DNA of 64,000 bases from the NCBI RefSeq assembly GCF_963921235.1, contig NC_086097.1, forward strand, positions 78,122,001 through 78,186,000. The letters are read 5' to 3'. This document shows positions 52,240 through 61,802 of the stretch, piece by piece (positions within the stretch are counted from its first letter, which is position 1; each line of letters opens with the position of its first letter). The position numbers and the translations under genes were made by a program. The stretch is from Mobula hypostoma. Taxonomy: Eukaryota. The notes beneath the pieces were generated by a model that saw only the letters and a program-made list of their open reading frames with translations, did not search any database and was not told the DNA's origin.

Positions 52240-52510
52240 GAAAGACCCTTGTGTGAGGAGAGACAGGATTTCCCTAAAACGTTTTCACTAGAGTTTAGAA
52301 AAGTAGCACAAGATCTCACTGAAATGTACCAAATTTGGCTTGGAATCAATAGACTGGATACAGGGATATACATTTCCGCTGACTGAGTGTGAGGATGAGA
52401 ACTCATGGTCACGGTCCCAGGAATATGGGATAACATATTTAGATCTGACATGTGAGGAAATTCCATCATTGGAAGTATGCTGAAACTGGAATTCACTTCC
52501 ACACAGTGTT
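52240..52510 (+). mobile_element. Old CR1 3' fragment, left half (continues at 61803-61958)
   Basis: Ends tggaattcacttccacacagtgtt (WNSLPHSV); joined to 61803 it reads on in frame RDSYLLNEFKKDIKRCL. Confidence 0.75.
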
Positions 52511-55500
52511 CATCACCATCATCATCAAGTGCCGTGCCCACTTTGAGCTTTGACTGCCATGGCCCACACACACTTGTTTTGGGTCATGTGGATCAATTCA
52601 TTGGTATTCGTTTCCAGTTCTCTGGCTGCTGTCTCCATCATCATTTGTCTTTGTCTTCCTCTTGCTTCCTTCCCTTCAGTCTATCCCATAATTACCGTGC
52701 ATTCTAACTCCTCTTTCTTAATCACATGTCCAATGAAGTTACGTTGCCTTTTCATGATCTCATACATTGTTTCTCTTTTTGTGCTTGCTCTGTTCATGAA
52801 ATCCTCGTTAGATATTTGTTTTGTCCATGATATTCTTTGCATTCTCCTCAAAAACCACATTTCTGCTGCTTCAATTCGATTCCTCATGTTACTAGATATT
52901 GTCCAACATTCTGAGCCATAACATAACTGGATAAACGTAACATTTCAGTACTCTGAGGTGGGTTGTCATGCCTAGTTTAGTATTGGTCAGTATACTCTTC
53001 ATTCTTGTAAAGGTGTCTTTTGCCATCCCTATTCTTCTTTTGATGTCCATATCGCACCTGCCATCTGATCTCACCCAGCTTCCTAAGTAGCAAAAGTTCT
53101 GTACTTGTTTTATGTCTTCCCTATCTATTCTCAGCCTGCAGATAGAATTCTCCTCCTTTTTGGATATCACCATACATTCTGTCTTTTTGCAATTGATAGA
53201 TAGACCCATTTTTGCACTTTGTTCAACAATTATATCAATTAAGTTTTGCAGTTCTTTCTCCGTACTTGCAATTAACATAGTGTCACCTGCATATCTGAAA
53301 TTGATGTTTTCACCACCAACTTTGATTCCCAAGATGTCTCTTATTTTTTGTAATATTGTTTCACTGTACACATTAAATAAATCAGGGGAGAAAACATACC
53401 CTTGTCTAATGCCTTTCTTGATTTTTGTAAACTGACTCACTTCTCCATCTATTCTTACAGTGGCAGTTTGTTCCCTATACAGATTTCTGATTAAGCGGAG
53501 GTCTTTTGAATCTAGATCCAGAGTTCTCTGTAATACTTCAAATAACTTATTGTGCTTCACTTTAGCAAATGCTTTTGTGTAGTCGATAAAACAAACAAAC
53601 AAATCTTTTTGCACTTGAATAGCTCATTCTGATAATAACCTTAACATCAATATTGCGTTTCTTGTACCTTTGTCTTTCACAAAACCATATTGTTCTTTAC
53701 CTATTTCAGCATGTATCTTACTTTTAGCTCTTAGAAGCTATATCACCAAGATACTTCAAAATTCTTGGTGATAGAAACCATAGAAACCATAGAAACTACA
53801 GCACAGAAACAGGCCCTTTGGCCCTTCTTGGCTGTGCCGAACCATTTTCTGCCTAGTCCCACTGACCTGCACATGGACCATATCCCTCCATACACCTCCC
53901 ATCCATGTATCTGTCCAATTTATTCTTAAATGTTAAAAAAGAACCCACATTTACCACCTCGTCTGGCAGCTCATTCCATACTCCCACCACTCTCTGTGTG
54001 AAGAAGCCCCCACTAATGTTCCCTTTAAACATTTCCCCCCTCACCCTTAACCCATGTCCTCTGGTTTTTTTCTCCCCTTGCCTCAGTGGAAAAAGCCTGC
54101 TTGCATTCACTCGATCTATACCCATCATAATTTTATATACTTCTATCAAATCTCACCTCATTCTTCTACGCTCCAGGGAATAAAGTCCTAACCTATTCAA
54201 CCTTTCTCTGTAACTGAGTTTCTCAAGTCCCGGCAACATCCTTGTAAACCTTCTCTGCACTCTTTCAACCTTATTTATATCCTTCCTGTAATTTGGTGAC
54301 CAAAACTGAACACAATACTCCAGATTCGGCCTCACCAATGCCTTATACAACCTCATCATAACATTCCAGCTCTTATACTCAATACTTCGATTAATAAAGG
54401 CCAATGTACCAAAAGCTCTCGTTATGACCCTATCTACATGTGACGACACTTTTAGGGAATTTTGTATCTGTATTCCCAGATCCCTCTGTTCCACTGCATT
54501 CCTCAGTGCCTTACCATTAACCCTGTATGTTCTACGTTGGTTTGTCCTTCCAACGTGCAATACCTCACACTTGTCAGTATTAAACTCCATCTGCCATTTT
54601 TCAGCCCATTTTCCCAGCTGGTCCAAGTCCCTCTGCAGGCTCTGAAAACCTTCCTCACTGTCTACTACACCTCCAAACTTTGTATCATCAGCAAACTTGC
54701 TGATCCAATTTACCACATTATCATCCAGATCATTGATATAGATGACAAATAACAATGGACCCAGCACTGATCCCTGTGGCACACCACTAGTCACAGGCCT
54801 CCACTCAGAGAAGCAATTCTCTACCACCACTCTCTGGCTTCTTCCATCGAGCCAATGTCTAATCCAATTTACCACCTCTCCATGTATACCTAGCGACTGA
54901 ATTTTCCTAACTAACCTCCCATGCGGGACCTTGTCAAAGGTCTTACTGAAGTCCATGTAGACAATATCCACTGCCTTCCCTTCATCCACTTTCCTGGTAA
55001 CCTCCTCAAAAAACTCCAACAGATTGGTCAAACATGACCTACCATGCACAAAGCCATGTTGACTCTCCCTAATAAGCCCCTGTCTATCCAAATGCTTGTA
55101 GATTCTGTCTCTTAGTACTCCCTCCAATAATTTACCTACTACTGATGTTAAACTCACTGGCTTATAATTTCCCGGATTACTTTTCGATCCTTTTTTAAAC
55201 AACGGAACAACATGAGCCACTCTCCAATCCTCCGGCTCTTCACTCATAGACAGCGACATTTTAAATATTTCTGCCAGGGCCCCCGCAATTTCAACACTAG
55301 TCTCCTTCAAGGTCCGAGGGAACATTCTGTCAGGTCCCGGGGATTTATCCACTTTAATTTTCCTCAAGACAACAAGCACCTCCTCCTTTTCAATCTGTAC
55401 AGTTTCCATGGTCTCACTACTTGATTCCCTCAATTCCACAGATTTCATGCCAGCTTCCTTAGTAAATACAGACGCAAAAAACCTATTTAAGATCTCCCCC

Positions 55501-57828
55501 ATTTCCTTTGGTTCCGCACAAAGCCGACCACTCTGATCTTCAAGAGGACCAATTTTATCCCTTACAATCCTTTTGCTCTTAATATACTTGTAAAAGCTCT
55601 TTGGATTATCCTTCACTTTGACTGCCAAGTCTTCTTTTTGCCCTCCTGATTTCTTTCTTAAGTATATGACTCATGATATGACTCATTAAACTTATGGTCC
55701 TATGTAATTCACATTCTATTGCTCCAGGTTTCTTAGGAAGAGTGATAAATACTGATTTCTTCATCTCTTCTGGTAATATCCCAGTCTCATAAATGTTATT
55801 GATTAAATCAGTAACTATTTCAATTCCATAATCTTCAAGGGCGATAATTTGTTCTATTACTAATTCATCAGGACCTGCTGCCTTTCCTTTCTTCATCTTA
55901 TTTATTGCATTACGAACTTCAGATTGTAAAATACTTGGACCTTTAATGTTTTTCTTAATTTCTGGTTTTTCACCTCGATCGTCTTCAAACAATTCCCGAA
56001 TATACTCATTCCATCTGTTCAAAATCTCATCTTTTTCCATGATAATGGTACCGTCCTTTGCTTTCAAACATCCACCTGAAGAACAGAGCTTTTCACCAGT
56101 GATATTCTTGATTTGTTGATGTAACCTTTTTGGATCAGTGATAGGGATTCTTTCTATTTGCTCACATTCCTGGTTTAACCATTCTTCTTTGGCTTTTTGA
56201 CATGAGCTTTTAGCTTTTTTATCTAAGGACTTATATTCTGTAGGATTTGCTTTCTTCTGTCTCCTTTCTTCCATTAGATTTTTGATTTCATCTGTCATCC
56301 ATTTATTCTTTGTGCTTTTTTCTTTTTTAGGAATCACTGACATTGCTGATTCTACCAAGACATCCTTTAGAGAGTTAAATTTCATTTCTGCATGATTGCT
56401 ATCATCTTCAACAGGTTCTATTTCTAGACTTTGAAATCTATTCCTTACTTCAATTGTAAATTTTTGTCTTACATTTTCTTCTTTAATTAATTGCAAGTAG
56501 TCAAGGGATTGTTAAGGTTTTTGCTTCTTTGGTTTTTTAAGTTTTACTTTTACATGACATACTACTGGGTTATGGTCACTATTAAAGTCTGCACCTGGAT
56601 ATGTTTTGCATTGAGTTACTGAGTTTCTAAATCTTTGGTTTATAGTAATAAAGTCAATTTGATTTCTAGTGTTATCACCTGGACTTTTCCCGGTCCACAA
56701 ATGCCTTGGATGGTTTTTAAAGTAGGTATTCATAATGACCTGATTATTTATCTTGCACCATTCTACCCATTTCTCACCTCTTTCATTTCCTTCCCCAAAT
56801 TTTCCTAGGGTATTTCCATCAGCACCTTGTCCTACTATAGTATTTTGATCTCCCATGACAATAACAATATCTTGAGATTTGCATCCATTCTTTGCTTGTT
56901 CAAGCTCTTCGTAGAATTTATCTATATCCTCATTTGTTCCATCTGTTGTTGGTGCATATGCCTGTATAATTGCTAAATCAAATGGTTGTCTTTTGAATCT
57001 AACAAGGAGCACTCTTTCTGATATTGCCCTATGTCCTAAAACACTTTTTGCCATGTTTTCATCCATAAGAATTCCTACTCCATTAGTATGGGATGTTCCA
57101 CAAGAATAAATTAGTGTTTTATTTCTATTCTGACATGTTCCAGCACCTATCCAATGAACTTCACTAATTCCCATGATGTTAATCTTTAGTCCTTCCATTT
57201 CATTTATCACATTGTCCAATCTTCCTGCTTGATATAGGGTTCTTACATTCCAAGTGGCAATAATTTTCTATTGTGCTTCTTGAATTTTTTGAGCAGCAGC
57301 TTGATGACGGTCGGGGATCCCCTGCTGACCAGAATCAATCCTATCGAGCGAAACATTTTCAGAATTATCTTGAAGATCCTCTTGACATTGTTGTTGTGTG
57401 ATACATTTTGTGAGTTTGACCATGGTTTTCTTAGCAAATAGAATCTAGGAAACCTAGTATCTAGCAACGGTGGTTTGCTATTGCCTACAGTTGGGCGAAC
57501 TAAAGAAATCGCCATTTCTCTTCCCAAATGTTCATCCGCCTCTCCTATAGCTTCCCAAATGTTCATCCGCCTCTCCTATAGCCGTTGACATTTGAGGTCC
57601 TAGCTCATCTGCCTTCTCCGTCATAAGTTCAGTTACTGAACCTGCCAAATCTGCTGCTGGCCTTCGCTCATATCCTGAGCAGGAACCCTTGCAGGTGCTA
57701 CCATTCCAGGTCAGAGCTGCCCTGGGAGTAATGAATGACTAAGGGGTAACTCCACTTTCCCCAAAGCTCTGAAAGTCCCCAATCAGAGCCTCATCACCAG
57801 TTGCAGTTTAGAGTCATACCCAGGACTA
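52511..57828 (-). mobile_element. Near full-length RTE LINE (5' UTR, EN, RT, (GAT)n tail), split by a CR1
   Basis: ORF 56512-57219 (GISEVHW, QAYAPT, NQIDFI, SDH), ORF 55606-56496 (KAAGPD, HRTISLMSH), ORF 52892-53614 (FIDYTKAF, GIRQG..FSPDLFN, FCYLGS); tail catcaccatcatcatc at 52511-52526. Confidence 0.92.
53772..55664 (-). mobile_element. Young 5'-truncated CR1 LINE inserted in the RTE
   Basis: Open 491-aa ORF 54153-55628 with a complete RT (GVPQGSVLGP, KFADD) plus ORF 53853-54149 after a single stop; (GGTTTCTAT)n tail. Confidence 0.95.
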
Positions 57829-58251
57829 CTGATATCAAAGAACATTTTGTTTTAGTTTCAGGGAAATTAGATAATAAGTTAATGGTTTTTGCTCATTTGC
57901 ATGCCCCAAATATAGATGATCCAGGCTTTTTTGAATGTTTTTGTTTCACTTTTATCAAATTTAAGTTTAAGTTTATATTCTTTGGTTTTAGGAGGAGACT
58001 TCATCTGTTGTTTAGATCCTGTTTTAGATCGTTCTTCTTCTAAATGATTGACTTGTAGTAGATCTGCCTCCTTTATCCAATCTTTTCTAATGAAATGTGA
58101 TATTATTGATGTTTGGCGTAATGTGATATTATTGATGTTTGGCGTATTTTTGCATCCAACAGATAAACTCATTTTTTTCTCATGTTCATCATACGCATTC
58201 CAGGATTGATTATTTTTTTGTTGATAGCCAATTGATTCCATTGGTTCAATC
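57829..58251 (+). mobile_element. L1 ORF2 endonuclease fragment, antisense to the flanking RTE and SLC9C1 copy
   Basis: FVLVSGKLDNK..HAPNIDDPGFF, GGDF, LDPVLDRSS, IDVWR, FFSHVHHTHSRIDYFFVDSQLIPLVQS; includes a 26-bp tandem duplication at 58094-58145. Confidence 0.85.
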
Positions 58252-58447
58252 CCAATTCTTTTATTGCCTCTTGATAATTTCTCTCCACAATACTTCTCAG
58301 TTGCTGAGAGATCACTTTTTGGTCTGGAATGTGATCAATAAGATTACTAACATCCTCTTCTCCTACAATATATCCTTTTCCAATACCACATCCAAAGCAG
58401 AGTTGTTTGTTTAGCTTTTAGTTGAGAAGATGTATGAAGGATGGTAA

Positions 58448-58570
58448 CAGGAAAGGAATGGAGGGTTATGGGCTGAGTGCAGGTCGGTAGCACTAGGTGA
58501 GAGTAAGAGTTCGGCACGGACTAGAAGGGCCGAGATGGCCTTTTTCCGTACTGTGATTGTTATATGGTTA
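58448..58570 (+). mobile_element. Short CR1 3'-end insertion within the SLC9C1 copy
   Basis: Close match to the reverse complement of 63530-63663; removing it restores LLKII-LPSFIHLLN. Confidence 0.88.
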
Positions 58571-60179
58571 TATAATCTTTAAAAGCTGAAGAACCCTGGC
58601 AAGGTGTATCAAGCTGAAAATTCGAACCATACGAACCTTGTACTCACTACGATCAAAGAATTGATCAACTATGACATCAGCTGCTGCTAATGTGATGATG
58701 AATAGGTCAAACAGATTCCAATGATCAAGGAAATAGGATTTACGCACAGCAAGAATCTTCATAAGTGCTTCTGTTTATACATATTATGAAGAAAACATAA
58801 TTGGTCATTTGCAGTTCCAGAGCATACTGTATATTCATTTTGGGATGCATTCCAGGATGATTGGGAAGATATTTAGGATTACCAGTACATGAAAAACATT
58901 CAAATGCACTGTTGTATACCATACAATGACAATATTTTGAAATTCTGCCTTTGTATGGCTTGTATTTGTCCACTTTGACATTATACATCCAGTCTTTCAG
59001 CTTTTTCCTGATGGTAACATAAATTCCTTTGAGATCCCAGTGTTTCTTCACATCTATTACAGTCATAAATCTTCTGGAATCAATCATGTTCTCGGTGATA
59101 CTAATCAGCGTACGTGCAGCTTGACGGTTTAGCATATCAGCACTATATTGCCGCCAGTAACTTGTCTTTTAAGCCTTTAAAAGGCATATTTTGGCTTCTT
59201 CCATCATGTCATCTATCTCACGGAGGGAAGGCTCCCATGGAATATTTTTTTCACAGTCAGGGCAATGAACTGCTTTAGTGCTTGGCAAAATTTCATCAAT
59301 TTGAACATTTTTTTGTGACATTTGTATGGGTCATCAATTTGCACAACTTTTTCTGCAATTACCCGGTTTGCATCTACCAGGAATCTATCCATTTTCAATA
59401 AAGAAAATCTGTTGGCCTGACTTTCTCTGATACGCTGAATTGCACCGTACATAGCCATGCATTTAGGGGCTGGAATATCTCGAAGGCCCAAGGTATCGAT
59501 AATCCATTCCATGGCGGTGCCATTGATTAGCAGTGTCAATAATACAGACCCCAATACATGCAGCAATATCTTGTTTCTGACATTCACTTCATCAGGTCCT
59601 TCCAAATGATATGCCATAAGAGATAAACTTAGAGTGAAAGCACCTTTTGTACCACTTCAGATGCAAACAGCTCCCCAGCGCCAATTGAAACCATAGCCCA
59701 GATGTTTTAACAATAGTGCCAAGCCCACGATAATTATCAAGCGTATATTATTTATTCCAAACTAAAGTACAATAATGAAAAAGCCATCAGTGATGGACAT
59801 ATGTTCCAATGTTTTTTGTGATATGACAACTCCAACAATCATGAAGATGAGAGAATTTCCTAGATATGTTAGCATTTCCCAAGAGCGCAATAAGAACACC
59901 TCAGTCTTTGGGCTGAAACTCACTGTTTCCATAAAGAGCCCCATAAATGTAACAGATATCACACCCAATATACCAACCCATTCACCGACATGGAACGCTA
60001 TGTAAGTATTTGCCAAACTGATCGTTATCTCCATTACCCCATCATTAAAGACATAGGTTAGGCAAAACATGGTGATTTTGACCATTATATATCCAAATAC
60101 TGGGCTTACAAACACCTTTAGCATCAGTCTTATAGCAAGTTCAACAGCTTCAACATCATGTGGTTCAAGAGCAAGTTCT

Positions 60180-61118
60180 AATGAAATTGAAATTTTAATT
60201 CAAAAAGGGAAAATGAAAAAATTTAGTTCTTGTATGTATAATTTGATTCAAAAACAGACAAAGAATCCATAAACAAGGAATCCATAAGTCAAAACAAAAA
60301 TGGGAAACAGATCTGAATATTAATATTGATGAAACAAATTGGTCAAGACTGTGTCTTGACAGTATGACAAATACAATAAATGTTCGACTTAGATTAGTAC
60401 AATATAACTTTTTACACCAATTATATATTACACCACAAAAAATAAATAGATTAAATTCAAATCTATCTGATAAATGCTTTCGGTGTAATCAAGAAATTGG
60501 TACTTTCTTACATTCTACTTGGTCTTGTTTTGAAATTCAACCCTTTTGGATAAATTTAAGAGTCTTATTGGAACAAATTACTGGAACTCAACTTCCACAT
60601 AACCCTGTATTATTTCTACTAGGTGATATTGAAGGGATAAAGCCGAAACTTAAATTGAATAAATATCAGAAAGAATTTATGAAAATTGCATTGGCAGTAG
60701 CTAAGAAGACTATAGCAGTTACTTGGAAATCTGATTCGTATTTAAGTATGAATCGTTGGAACAATGAAATGGCTAGTTCTATTCCACTTGAAAAAATTAC
60801 TTATAATTTGAGATAAATATGAAACATTTTTGAATATTTGGCGCCCTTATTTACAAAAGATAGGATGGCATATTTAATTGCTCCGATAAAGATCTTGGTC
60901 CCTTGGGGAAACTAACGAATAAGTATACTAAACTTATTTTGAATCCCATGGAGCATGTGGAAACCTTCCAATACCCAGGCGGTTCTTTTTTTCTTTCTTT
61001 CTTTTCTTTTTTAGGTAGGACTATATATGGAGGGGGAGGGTTAAGGGGAGGGGGAGGAGGGTAGATATTATCTTTCCATGTATTCATTTTGAAAACTTAA
61101 TAAAAATTATATTAAAAA
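60180..61118 (+). mobile_element. 5'-truncated L1 with 13-bp TSD inserted in the SLC9C1 copy
   Basis: ORF 60364-60816 with CFRC...FLHSTWSC; AATAAA + A tail; TSD aagagcaagttct at 60167-60179 and 61119-61131; removal restores FEVF*ELALEPHDVE. Confidence 0.95.
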
Positions 61119-61802
61119 AAGAGCAAGTTCTCAAAAGACTTCAAACATGGCAATAGCAGTTCCATCATTCAGCAATGATTCCCCTTCAATCAATAGAGTA
61201 AGCATTTTCGATGCACCTAGTTTCTAAGCAGAGCGACAGCTGTAATAGGGTCAGTGCAGGCAAGCATTGACCCAAACGTCACACCAACGTGCCAATCCCA
61301 GTTGAATGTGTAAACCTTGACAGCCAAAACAGCAATCATTGCAGCACTCAGGACCAAACCGGGACCAGCCAAAAGCACCACCTGGGAAAGTGACTTCAAA
61401 AATACGTGAGATTCAATTTCAAATGCACTGCTGAATATCAAAACTCGCATAAATGTATGAATAAGCAGCAATGGGTCAATTTGTGCAATGATTTCCCTGT
61501 ACCTTTGCACCAATGTATACTTGGTACTTAATGTTCCAAAAGCAATACCGAATATGTAGAGAACTACAGTGTGTGGAAGTTTTACTCCCTTTAGCAGAGT
61601 TCTGATCACAGCTCCGAATAGAAGAGTTCCAAAGATGAAGAGAATGATGTGAGACAGATCTTGAGCGATGATTCTGAAGTTGCTACCTTTAAACCCCAAA
61701 TGTGCCATAAGCGGGAGTCGTGGACATGTTGCTCAATTTAACACTTGTCGTGGCATACTCTGGGCGTAGATATTGATCAAGTGAATATAGTCACACACTG
61801 TT

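What the first reader, a model, noticed from the sequence alone, without database searches (positions are those of the whole stretch)
52500..61802. One ~9.3 kb chimeric retro-insertion: spliced SLC9C1 mRNA 5' part + antisense L1 piece + full-length RTE (apparent RTE 5' transduction)
Seen: cacacagtgtt (52500-52510) and cacacactgtt (61792-61802) match at 10/11 and flank the whole block. Deleting the block rejoins an old CR1 in frame as WNSLPHSV|RDSYLLNEFKKDIKRCL, the CR1 ORF2 C-terminal motif. On the minus strand the block reads SLC9C1 5' UTR/ATG, intronless CDS up to KELG, antisense L1, RTE 5' UTR-EN-RT, then the (GAT)n tail abutting the left TSD. It measures about 6.3 kb once three later insertions are removed. 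Known: ordinary processed pseudogenes keep the 3' end and poly(A) and lose the 5' end, the opposite of this copy; SLC9C1 is a sperm/testis gene. Inference: a source RTE lying sense in an SLC9C1 intron was transcribed from the germline host promoter and retrotransposed in cis together with the upstream spliced exons. This would be promoter borrowing and host-gene capture by an RTE. RT template switching is the alternative explanation.
Basis: partly seen in the sequence, partly recalled or inferred. Interest (0 to 1): 0.88.

Follow-up and report, generated by a model that had tools for sequence, protein, structure and literature searches.

The report
Host exons captured by RTE retrotransposon
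One old jumping-gene insertion in a ray-like genome carries 18 spliced exons of a sperm ion-exchanger gene fused, through a splice into an antisense L1 piece, to a complete RTE element; it is a dead copy, but it shows that RTE elements can carry off host exons, as L1 and SVA do in primates.

Summary
Window 52511-61791 (minus strand = sense) is one retro-insertion flanked by an 11-nt target-site duplication (10/11) inside an old CR1.

It holds, 5' to 3':
- a 64-nt inverted piece of the SLC9C1 5' UTR and 18 nt of filler;
- SLC9C1 exons 1-18 with all 17 introns removed;
- 424 nt of antisense L1;
- a full-length RTE with a (GAT)n tail.

The multi-exon parent gene lies on contig C45. Exon 18 ends exactly at its GT donor and is joined exactly behind a polypyrimidine-CAG acceptor of the antisense L1, so this is a real splice junction. 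The three parts have the same neutral age (3.4-4.6%). The TSD length matches ordinary copies of this RTE family. A second organism carries the same intronless copy and the same right junction.

The predicted source was not found. No L1 of this family lies in 180 kb of the parental locus, and no other L1-RTE junction was found in the assembly. A same-age sense RTE does sit in intron 21, but it has its own TSD and no L1 upstream.

Best reading: RTE-mediated 5' transduction of a spliced co-transcript (about 0.6). Template switching is the rival (about 0.28). This is a new variant of a known kind (SVA and L1 exon capture).

The parts
52500..52510 (.). Left copy of the target-site duplication (CACACAGTGTT), part of the old CR1 target
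52511..52528 (-). RTE 3' microsatellite-like tail, (GAT)n-like in sense, lying against the TSD
   Evidence: other copies of the family end the same way
52511..57827 (-). Full-length RTE-type LINE, about 3.4 kb without the nested insertion. It has a 5' UTR, an APE-type endonuclease and a reverse transcriptase. Its 5' end AGTCCTGGGTATGAC is the canonical end of the family.
   Evidence: Pfam Exo_endo_phos and RVT_1. 39 of 39 non-self hits end at window 57826-57833. The 5' ends of 11 other copies were compared.
53733..55674 (-). Later nested CR1-like LINE fragment (RT ORF, tandem-repeat tail) inside the RTE. The first ~35 nt (53733-53767) are a near-palindrome that looks like an inverted RTE segment.
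   Evidence: Contigs of other RTE copies skip 53732->55674 (table 5).
57828..57828 (-). One ambiguous nucleotide (T in sense) between the antisense L1 and the RTE. It is either untemplated or the RTE's first base.
57829..58252 (+). L1 endonuclease-region fragment (424 nt), antisense to the rest of the block. In the fusion RNA it acted as a cryptic exon that starts just behind an antisense polypyrimidine-CAG acceptor.
   Evidence: A matching L1 copy has L1-type ORF1p and ORF2p.
58253..61708 (-). Processed, dead copy of SLC9C1 exons 1-18 (ATG to ...KELG). It has 146 substitutions in 2374 aligned nt against the parent, 5 stop codons and several frameshifts.
58450..58576 (+). Later insertion of a 127-nt CR1-tail/SINE-like fragment, exactly between exon 16 and exon 17 sequence
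60180..61118 (+). Later insertion of an L1 3' fragment with an A-rich tail and its own 13-nt TSD (60167-60179 and 61119-61131), inside exon 5 sequence
61709..61726 (-). 18-nt filler of unknown origin between the inverted 5' UTR piece and the ATG
   Evidence: no match with up to 3 mismatches in 200 kb of the parental locus or elsewhere in the window
61727..61790 (+). Inverted 5' UTR segment, identical in orientation to parental C45:54336534-54336597 (-102..-39 from the ATG) and therefore antisense within the block. It reaches to within 1 nt (61791) of the right TSD, a twin-priming-like 5' inversion.
61792..61802 (.). Right copy of the target-site duplication (CACACACTGTT)
   Evidence: The junction is bridged by contigs of two organisms (records 8 and 24).

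Best explanation
One RTE-mediated, target-primed reverse transcription event copied a single fusion RNA into an old CR1.

Proposed steps:
1. The RNA started at the SLC9C1 promoter, about 102 nt before the ATG.
2. Exons 1-18 were spliced normally.
3. The donor of exon 18, which stands before the gene's longest intron (41.5 kb), was spliced to a cryptic acceptor in an antisense L1.
5. RTE proteins primed on the tail and copied the whole RNA.
6. The last ~100 nt of the 5' UTR were copied from the second nicked strand (twin-priming-like). This left a 64-nt inversion, a 38-nt loss and 18 nt of filler.

Shown: the single event, the spliced origin, the exact splice junction, the full-length RTE, the equal age of the parts, and the family-typical TSD and tail.

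Inferred: that the L1-RTE adjacency was genomic (a source in or near SLC9C1, since lost or never fixed); that the normal release of the RTE's 5' end failed; and the twin-priming step. Splicing in trans to an L1-RTE transcript from another locus is a sub-variant that is not excluded.
For: 1. Single event. An 11-nt TSD (10/11) encloses the block. Three ordinary copies of this RTE family have TSDs of 10, 10 and 11-12 nt next to the same (GAT)n tail, while the window's RTE alone has none. There is no poly(A) or other tail at the L1/RTE junction.

2. Spliced parent. All 18 exons map in order to C45:54336636-54473528 with AG/GT-flanked boundaries, and the parental exons 1-18 form an open 803-codon frame.

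3. Splice junction. The parent reads GAATTGG|GTGAGT. Antisense L1 copies read ...TTTCTTTATATTCACAG|GATYGAAC in 5 of 6 copies examined. The block reads GAATTGG-GATTGAACC.

4. Equal ages.
- SLC9C1 part, changes placed on the retrocopy lineage by 8 outgroup proteins: 66-73 per ~1853 nonsynonymous sites, or 3.6-3.9% +/- 0.45.
- RTE terminal branch: 3.4% (CI 2.7-4.3).
- L1 piece: 4.6% (CI 3.0-6.5).

5. The RTE reaches the family's canonical 5' end.

6. The RTE's partner is a cryptic exon of an aberrant isoform. Transduction requires this; a random template jump does not predict it (inference).

7. RTEs are described as promoterless and transcribed from introns (PMC6765202, passage). A same-age sense full-length RTE sits in intron 21 of this very gene.

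8. Human L1-mRNA chimeras show the same pattern: sense first exons ending at donors, near-full-length element, one TSD, no intronic LINE-1 in 15 of the 17 gene loci, and long downstream introns (PMC13174262, sections 13 and 20). Here intron 18 is the longest of 25 introns.

9. Organism B carries the intronless copy and the right junction. Its contigs cross exon-exon joins and 61791|61792, with 33 differences in 1967 nt.
Against: - No source was found. No L1 of this family lies in C45:54450001-54630000, that is from exon 16 to 56 kb past the last exon. The window's L1 piece gave nothing significant there (best E about 0.19), and six L1 loci of about 3.3 kb each gave 0 hits at E <= 1e-8.
- Only the window itself spans the L1/RTE junction in the 3.48-Gb assembly. 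Only 40 of 2050 and 40 of 635 candidates were scored.
- The best other L1 match is 85% including gaps, 6.2% in substitutions, and is not near the gene.
- The intron-21 RTE is neither preceded by L1 nor specifically related to the window's RTE: distance 6.7% against 5.8-6.8% to the others, and 4 shared private variants against 1-2 for the window's other pairs and up to 7 for pairs overall.
- A full-length RTE with one extra nucleotide at the junction is also what an end-of-template jump would give.
- The L1/RTE junction has no splice signal.
- No ribozyme that would explain 5' processing was detected.
Confidence: 0.6

Rival explanations
1. Template switching. The RTE reverse transcriptase copied an ordinary RTE RNA to its very 5' end. 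It then jumped onto a separate RNA, an aberrantly spliced SLC9C1 transcript (exons 1-18 plus a cryptic antisense-L1 exon), at or near position ...GATATCAG, and copied it to its 5' end. No RTE ever lay next to that L1 in the genome.
For: - The RTE ends at its canonical first base, and one extra nucleotide lies at the junction.
- The L1/RTE junction has no splice signal.
- No genomic L1-RTE source exists in the assembly.
- Chimeric retrocopies made by LINE template jumps are known for L1 and a fungal LINE, including double jumps (PMC2104539, abstract in the listing).
Against: - It still needs an antisense L1 inside the SLC9C1 transcription unit, and that is also missing.
- The acceptor RNA would have to be a rare aberrant isoform rather than the normal mRNA.
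- The junction shows no A-run and no obvious poly(A) signal, so it is not the 3' end of a mature RNA.
- Known L1 jump chimeras mostly carry 5'-truncated LINE parts, and the authors of the human L1-mRNA cases argue against jumps when a splice junction is present (PMC13174262, section 13).
Confidence: 0.28
2. Two or more independent events. A processed SLC9C1 fragment and an RTE landed side by side at different times, or a later DNA rearrangement joined them.
For: The region does collect insertions: three later nested insertions lie in the block.
Against: - The only TSD pairs the RTE tail with the far 5' end of the SLC9C1 part.
- There is no TSD around the RTE alone, although 3 of 3 family copies checked at both ends have one.
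- The SLC9C1-L1 part has no 3' tail.
- The ages of the parts agree.
- The CR1 target closes without a gap once the whole block is removed.
Confidence: 0.04

Closest known systems
Human LINE-1 / mRNA 5'-transduction chimeras (Law and Burns 2026, PMC13174262; sections 13 and 20 read)
   Same: - Sense first exons of a host gene lie 5' of a (near) full-length LINE.
- The exon part ends exactly at a splice donor.
- One TSD flanks the whole.
- The source element is mostly absent from the host introns (15 of the 17 gene loci hold no intronic LINE-1).
- The last included exon stands before an unusually long intron.
   Different: - The mobilising element here is an RTE-clade LINE with a microsatellite tail, in a cartilaginous fish, not L1.
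- 18 exons (2.4 kb) were captured, rather than 2-3.
- The acceptor lies in an unrelated antisense L1 fragment 424 nt upstream of the element, not in the element itself.
- The 5' end carries an inversion.
SVA exon trapping (MAST2-SVA_F1 in humans, STK40-SVA in chimpanzee; PMC6139936, abstract read)
   Same: Host first exon(s) are spliced onto a retrotransposon RNA and carried along as a 5' transduction.
   Different: SVA is non-autonomous, is mobilised by L1, and founded whole subfamilies. Here there is a single dead copy with no sibling, and the carrier is an autonomous-type RTE.
Template-switch chimeric retrogenes (U6/L1 and mRNA/L1 in mammals; tripartite MGL chimeras in Magnaporthe, PMC2104539, abstract in search listing)
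   Same: Copies of different RNAs are fused head to tail in one orientation inside one TSD pair, and a tripartite structure is possible.
   Different: One of the two internal junctions here is an exact splice junction, and the LINE part is full length rather than truncated at an arbitrary point.
L1 twin priming (5' inversion). This is recalled knowledge; it is mentioned only in passing in PMC13174262 section 20.
   Same: The 5'-most part of the RNA is present in inverted orientation, flush with the 5' TSD, with a small loss at the inversion joint.
   Different: The machinery here would be RTE. The inverted piece is only 64 nt, and 18 nt of filler lie at the joint.

Membership tests
RTE-clade LINE insertion by target-primed reverse transcription | Single ORF with an N-terminal APE-type endonuclease and a reverse transcriptase; element about 3.2-3.5 kb | tested here: met
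   Pfam Exo_endo_phos (E 9.8e-8) and RVT_1 (E 1e-21) on the element's ORFs. Length is 3375 nt after removing 53733-55674, about 3.4 kb in other copies.
RTE-clade LINE insertion by target-primed reverse transcription | Microsatellite-like 3' end next to a short TSD (feature named in the abstract of PMC6007223) | tested here: met
   A (GAT)n-like tail at 52511-52528 lies against the TSD. The same tail and 10-12-nt TSDs are seen in 3 of 3 other copies with both ends in hand.
RTE-clade LINE insertion by target-primed reverse transcription | Phylogenetic placement of the RT/EN within the RTE clade | tested here: inconclusive
   The nearest proteins are named 'craniofacial development protein 2-like'. 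That this name marks BovB/RTE-derived endonucleases is recalled, not tested. The RT shows no L1 preference in PDB (R2-type 1.7e-15, L1 ORF2p ~1e-13). No tree with reference RTEs was built.
Spliced 5' transduction / exon trapping by a retrotransposon | Host exons in sense 5' of the element, with introns removed | tested here: met
   18 exons, 17 introns removed
Spliced 5' transduction / exon trapping by a retrotransposon | The exon part ends at a splice donor and is joined to an acceptor | tested here: met
   Parent GAATTGG|GTGAGT. Antisense L1 ...TATATTCACAG|GAT in 5 of 6 copies.
Spliced 5' transduction / exon trapping by a retrotransposon | One TSD pair around the whole, and parts of equal age | tested here: met
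Spliced 5' transduction / exon trapping by a retrotransposon | A source element downstream of the last captured exon in the host gene | tested here: not met
   No L1 and no L1-RTE junction in C45:54450001-54630000 or elsewhere in the assembly. The intron-21 RTE does not fit. The same gap is reported for 15 of 17 human L1 cases.
Template-switch chimeric retrogene | Junction between the parts at arbitrary positions without splice signals; LINE part usually 5'-truncated | tested here: inconclusive
   The L1/RTE junction has no splice signal, but the RTE is full length and the other junction is a splice junction.
Classical processed pseudogene | Keeps the mRNA 3' end with poly(A) next to the TSD | tested here: not met
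   The copy stops at exon 18 of at least 26, and no A-tail follows it.
SLC9C1 (sperm-specific Na+/H+ exchanger) gene family, as origin of the captured exons | Na+/H+ exchanger domain followed by a voltage-sensor-like ion-transport domain; best matches to solved sperm-specific exchangers | tested here: met
   PDB best hits are 'Sperm-specific sodium proton exchanger' at E 1e-32. Pfam Na_H_Exchanger and Ion_trans. Ray and shark homologues named sodium/hydrogen exchanger 10-like.
L1-clade LINE (identity of the 424-nt antisense piece) | Family copies encode L1-type ORF1p and ORF2p | tested here: met
   A copy matching the piece (L039) has an ORF1 matching human LINE-1 ORF1p (E 5.6e-14) and an RT matching LINE-1 ORF2p (E 1e-37, against 1e-11 for R2). 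Pfam Transposase_22 was not hit.

The most novel reading that the evidence does not exclude
RTE-clade LINEs are said to lack promoters and to depend on co-transcription from host introns. The novel reading is that they can trap and carry off long runs of spliced host exons when the release of their 5' end fails, and that their integration can include a twin-priming-like second-strand step. This locus would be the first documented RTE case. It would imply a route for exon shuffling and promoter acquisition in the many animal lineages where RTE/BovB, not L1, is the active LINE.
Probability: 0.5. Interest if true: 0.6.

Novelty: new variant of a known kind. Interest (0 to 1): 0.5.

Why it matters
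RTE/BovB elements are among the most widespread and most often horizontally transferred LINEs. They are usually thought to copy only RNAs that carry their own 3' end, so they are not expected to move host genes.

This locus shows a clean case in which 2.4 kb of spliced host coding sequence, with its 5' UTR, rode in front of a full-length RTE. This is the same outcome as SVA exon trapping and the L1-mRNA chimeras described in 2026, but from a different LINE clade and a distant vertebrate lineage.

It also gives a concrete, datable example (about 3.5% neutral divergence, shared by two organisms) for testing how promoterless LINEs use host transcription.

The copy itself is dead. No function is claimed for it.

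Tried and rejected
- **Source hunt.**
  - BLAST of the block against 200 kb of the parental locus found exons and one RTE but no L1.
  - Six L1 loci against 180 kb gave 0 hits.
  - Genome-wide searches with the L1/RTE junction, the exon 18/L1 junction and the L1 piece found no sibling and no source. Only 40 candidates per search were scored.
- **Intron-21 RTE as source.** Distances and shared private variants are star-like, so it is neither supported nor excluded as the RNA donor. It is excluded as a cis source because CR1-like sequence and its own TSD flank it.
- **Paralogous empty CR1 sites at DNA level.** The left flank has no other DNA match in the genome, so a protein-level check was used instead.
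- **5' ribozyme idea.** This was an HDV-like self-cleavage site that would define the RTE 5' end. Rfam found nothing better than E 1.9 and no ribozyme family. The MFE z-score of the first 188 nt is -0.31. The idea is untested rather than refuted.
- **The 18-nt filler.** It has no match with up to 3 mismatches in the parental 200 kb or elsewhere in the window.
- **Naming of the L1 ORF1.** Pfam and the protein search gave nothing. PDB sequence matches settled it.
- **Sequencing runs.**
  - Among the listed pieces of organism C (X9), only exon-sized pieces inside longer contigs were seen, which is the parent gene.
No joint across the block was listed. This may be an empty site, but it cannot be counted as evidence.
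  - Organism D (X10) had no cover on the unique SLC9C1 parts.
- **Earlier notes of this scan.** Two look-ups found nothing.
- **A wider sample of full-length RTE copies.** This was not possible.


Full report
**What is there**

The window is G000:C1:78122001-78186000 of a 3.48-Gb animal assembly. Its nearest protein matches are in rays and sharks. Read on the minus strand, window 61802->52500 contains the following:

| Window (sense order) | Part |
|---|---|
| 61802->61792 | right TSD copy |
| 61791 | 1 nt |
| 61790->61727 | reverse complement of the parental 5' UTR, positions -102..-39 |
| 61726->61709 | 18 nt of filler |
| 61708->58253 | SLC9C1 coding sequence from the ATG to ...KELG |
| 58252->57829 | 424 nt of antisense L1 |
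| 57828 | one ambiguous base |
| 57827->52511 | an RTE-type LINE ending in a (GAT)n-like tail |
| 52510->52500 | left TSD copy |

Three younger insertions interrupt the block:
- a CR1-like fragment at 53733-55674;
- a 127-nt CR1-tail-like fragment at 58450-58576;
- an L1 3' fragment at 60180-61118, with its own 13-nt TSD.

**Is the TSD real and does it enclose everything?**

- The two 11-mers match at 10 of 11 positions.
- The pattern with up to one mismatch occurs 3 times in 128 kb of sequence (both strands), against 1.75 expected. A hit at the exact junction therefore has a chance of order 1e-4.
- The flanks belong to one old CR1. The left flank aligns to a CR1-like ORF2 C-terminus (score 65).
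- With one TSD copy kept, the joined flanks align without a gap across the WNxLP...FK motif (score 34, shuffles 17.6 +/- 3.5).
- Ordinary copies of the same RTE family have TSDs of 10, 10 and 11-12 nt directly next to AGTCCTGGG at the 5' end and the (GAT)n tail at the 3' end (3 of 3 copies with both ends available).
- The window's RTE has no such repeat at its own 5' end. Its partner repeat lies beyond the SLC9C1 part.

**The gene part is a spliced copy of a multi-exon parent**

- Genome searches found one parental locus on C45.
- All 18 exon-sized matches lie in order on the + strand from 54336636 to 54473528, bounded by AG and GT.
- Joined, the parental exons give an open 803-codon frame. 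tblastn with ray and shark homologues finds at least eight further exons up to 54573675.
- The window copy has all 17 introns removed, 146 substitutions in 2374 aligned nt (6.15%), five stop codons and several frameshifts. The differences are spread evenly over the three codon positions (56/42/48). It is a dead processed copy that keeps the 5' end and lacks the last third of the gene.
- The identity as the sperm-specific Na+/H+ exchanger rests on PDB matches (E 1e-32) and on Pfam Na_H_Exchanger and Ion_trans.

**The key junction is a splice junction**

- In the parent, exon 18 ends GAATTGG and the intron starts GTGAGT.
- The 424-nt piece is the endonuclease region of an L1 family. A matching copy encodes L1-type ORF1p and ORF2p.
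- In 5 of 6 L1 copies examined, the antisense strand reads ...TTTCTTTATATTCACAG just before GATYGAACC.
- The block reads GAATTGG-GATTGAACC. The exon 18 donor is joined exactly behind a polypyrimidine-CAG acceptor.
- A reverse-transcriptase jump would not be expected to hit both boundaries to the base. A pre-mRNA therefore contained SLC9C1 exon 18 and, downstream or in trans, this antisense L1.

**The other junction**

- The antisense L1 stops at ...GATATCAG, where L1 copies continue ACACTAC.
- After one T, the RTE starts with AGTCCTGGGTATGAC. This is the common 5' end of the 11 other copies inspected. It is also where all 39 non-self hits in each of two searches end, give or take chance extensions.
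- There is no splice signal, no A-run and no microhomology.
- This junction is either a genomic RTE-in-L1 insertion boundary or an end-of-template jump.

**Dating**

- Eight outgroup proteins place 66 of 106 nonsynonymous differences on the retrocopy lineage and 33 on the parent. Seven are undecided.
- This gives 3.6-3.9% (+/- 0.45) neutral change for the SLC9C1 part.
- RTE copies form a star. Pairwise distances are 5.3-7.0% and the window's terminal branch is 3.4% (CI 2.7-4.3).
- The terminal branch of the L1 piece is 4.6% (CI 3.0-6.5).
- The three parts are therefore of the same age. The L1 was at most slightly older than the event, which fits a young and possibly unfixed source.

**Independent support from public runs**

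Contigs of a second organism (B, run X5) cross exon-exon joins of the copy and bridge the right junction 61791|61792, with 33 differences in 1967 nt. The insertion thus predates the split of organisms A and B.

**The 5' inversion**

- Window 61727-61790 matches C45:54336534-54336597 in the opposite orientation to all the exons.
- In sense order the block begins: TSD, 1 nt, reverse complement of -39..-102, 18 nt filler, ATG. Positions -38..-1 are missing.
- This is the layout expected from twin priming. The second nicked strand primes inside the RNA and copies to its 5' end.
- It places the RNA's 5' end about 102 nt before the ATG, which is a plausible SLC9C1 start site.
- It ties the SLC9C1 5' end to the same staggered break as the RTE tail.
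- That twin priming is otherwise documented for L1 is recalled knowledge.

**The search for the source**

- Intron 18 is 41.5 kb, the longest of the 25 introns.
- Neither it nor any part of C45:54450001-54630000 holds L1 of this family.
- No other locus in the assembly carries the L1/RTE or exon 18/L1 junction.
- No L1 copy is specially close to the piece.
- A full-length sense RTE does lie in intron 21 (C45:54543390-54548216). It has its own 10-nt TSD and CR1-like sequence upstream, and it is no closer to the window's RTE than other copies are. It is not the cis source.
- It does show that this gene received a sense RTE during the same burst (terminal branch 3.4%).

**Weighing the mechanisms**

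Both transduction and template switching need an antisense L1 in the SLC9C1 transcript that is now gone.

Three points favour transduction:
- It explains why the RTE's partner is a cryptic exon of an aberrant isoform.
- RTEs are described as promoterless elements transcribed from introns (PMC6765202, passage read).
- The human L1-mRNA chimeras of Law and Burns show the same set of features, including the missing sources and the long downstream introns. The authors there disfavour template switching when a splice junction is present (PMC13174262, sections 13 and 20 read).

Template switching remains possible. It explains the exact end of the RTE and the extra base equally well, and it needs one insertion fewer.

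My estimates are about 0.6 for transduction (cis favoured, trans-splicing included), about 0.28 for a template jump, and about 0.04 for independent events.

**Novelty**

- Exon capture by splicing onto a retrotransposon RNA is known for SVA (PMC6139936, abstract) and for L1 (PMC13174262).
- Jump chimeras are known for L1 and a fungal LINE (PMC2104539, abstract in listing).
- My searches for an RTE case listed none. This is a limited full-text search of open papers, not proof of absence.
- I rate the finding a new variant of a known kind, of moderate interest. The locus itself is a pseudogene.

Noticed in passing
C45:54336534-54336732 and C45:54347390-54347578 (loci L017, L036): Exon 1 of the parental SLC9C1 gene and about 100 nt upstream of it are present twice, 10.8 kb apart. 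Identity to the retrocopy is 92.8% and 91.8%. The second copy lacks a few bases of the upstream segment.
   Followed up: partly
C45:54543390-54548216 (loci L027-L028): A full-length sense RTE of the same age as the window's lies in intron 21 of the parental gene. It has the TSD ATTGTACTTG, a later ~1.9-kb insertion in its 5' part and a 314-bp deletion.
   Followed up: yes
window 56512-57267 (-): Apart from two ray proteins (86-87% identity), the nearest relatives of the RTE endonuclease are from shrimps, a rotifer, a jellyfish, molluscs and a sea urchin, at 50-56% identity. The only named non-ray vertebrate hit in the best 120 is a reef fish, at 46%. This pattern would fit horizontal transfer of this RTE lineage.
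   Followed up: no
window 53733-53767: A ~35-nt near-palindrome lies at the edge of the nested CR1-like insertion. Other RTE copies carry about 28 nt there that look like the same segment in the other orientation (table 5c). It may be a small inversion tied to the nested insertion.
   Followed up: no
window 57520-57580 and 58094-58147: There are two private tandem duplications in the block: about 31 nt in the RTE 5' UTR and 27 nt in the antisense L1 piece. Both are absent from the other copies aligned.
   Followed up: partly
L047 (C21:96887600-96891690): This full-length RTE copy shows no TSD within 140 nt upstream of its canonical 5' end. It could be another copy with extra 5' sequence, or simply a decayed TSD.
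   Followed up: no
P0006 (public ray protein, 813 aa): An annotated homologue ends just after the exon 17 equivalent. It contains a ~45-aa stretch with weak matches on the opposite strand of introns of the parental locus. It is probably a truncated or mis-joined gene model.
   Followed up: no
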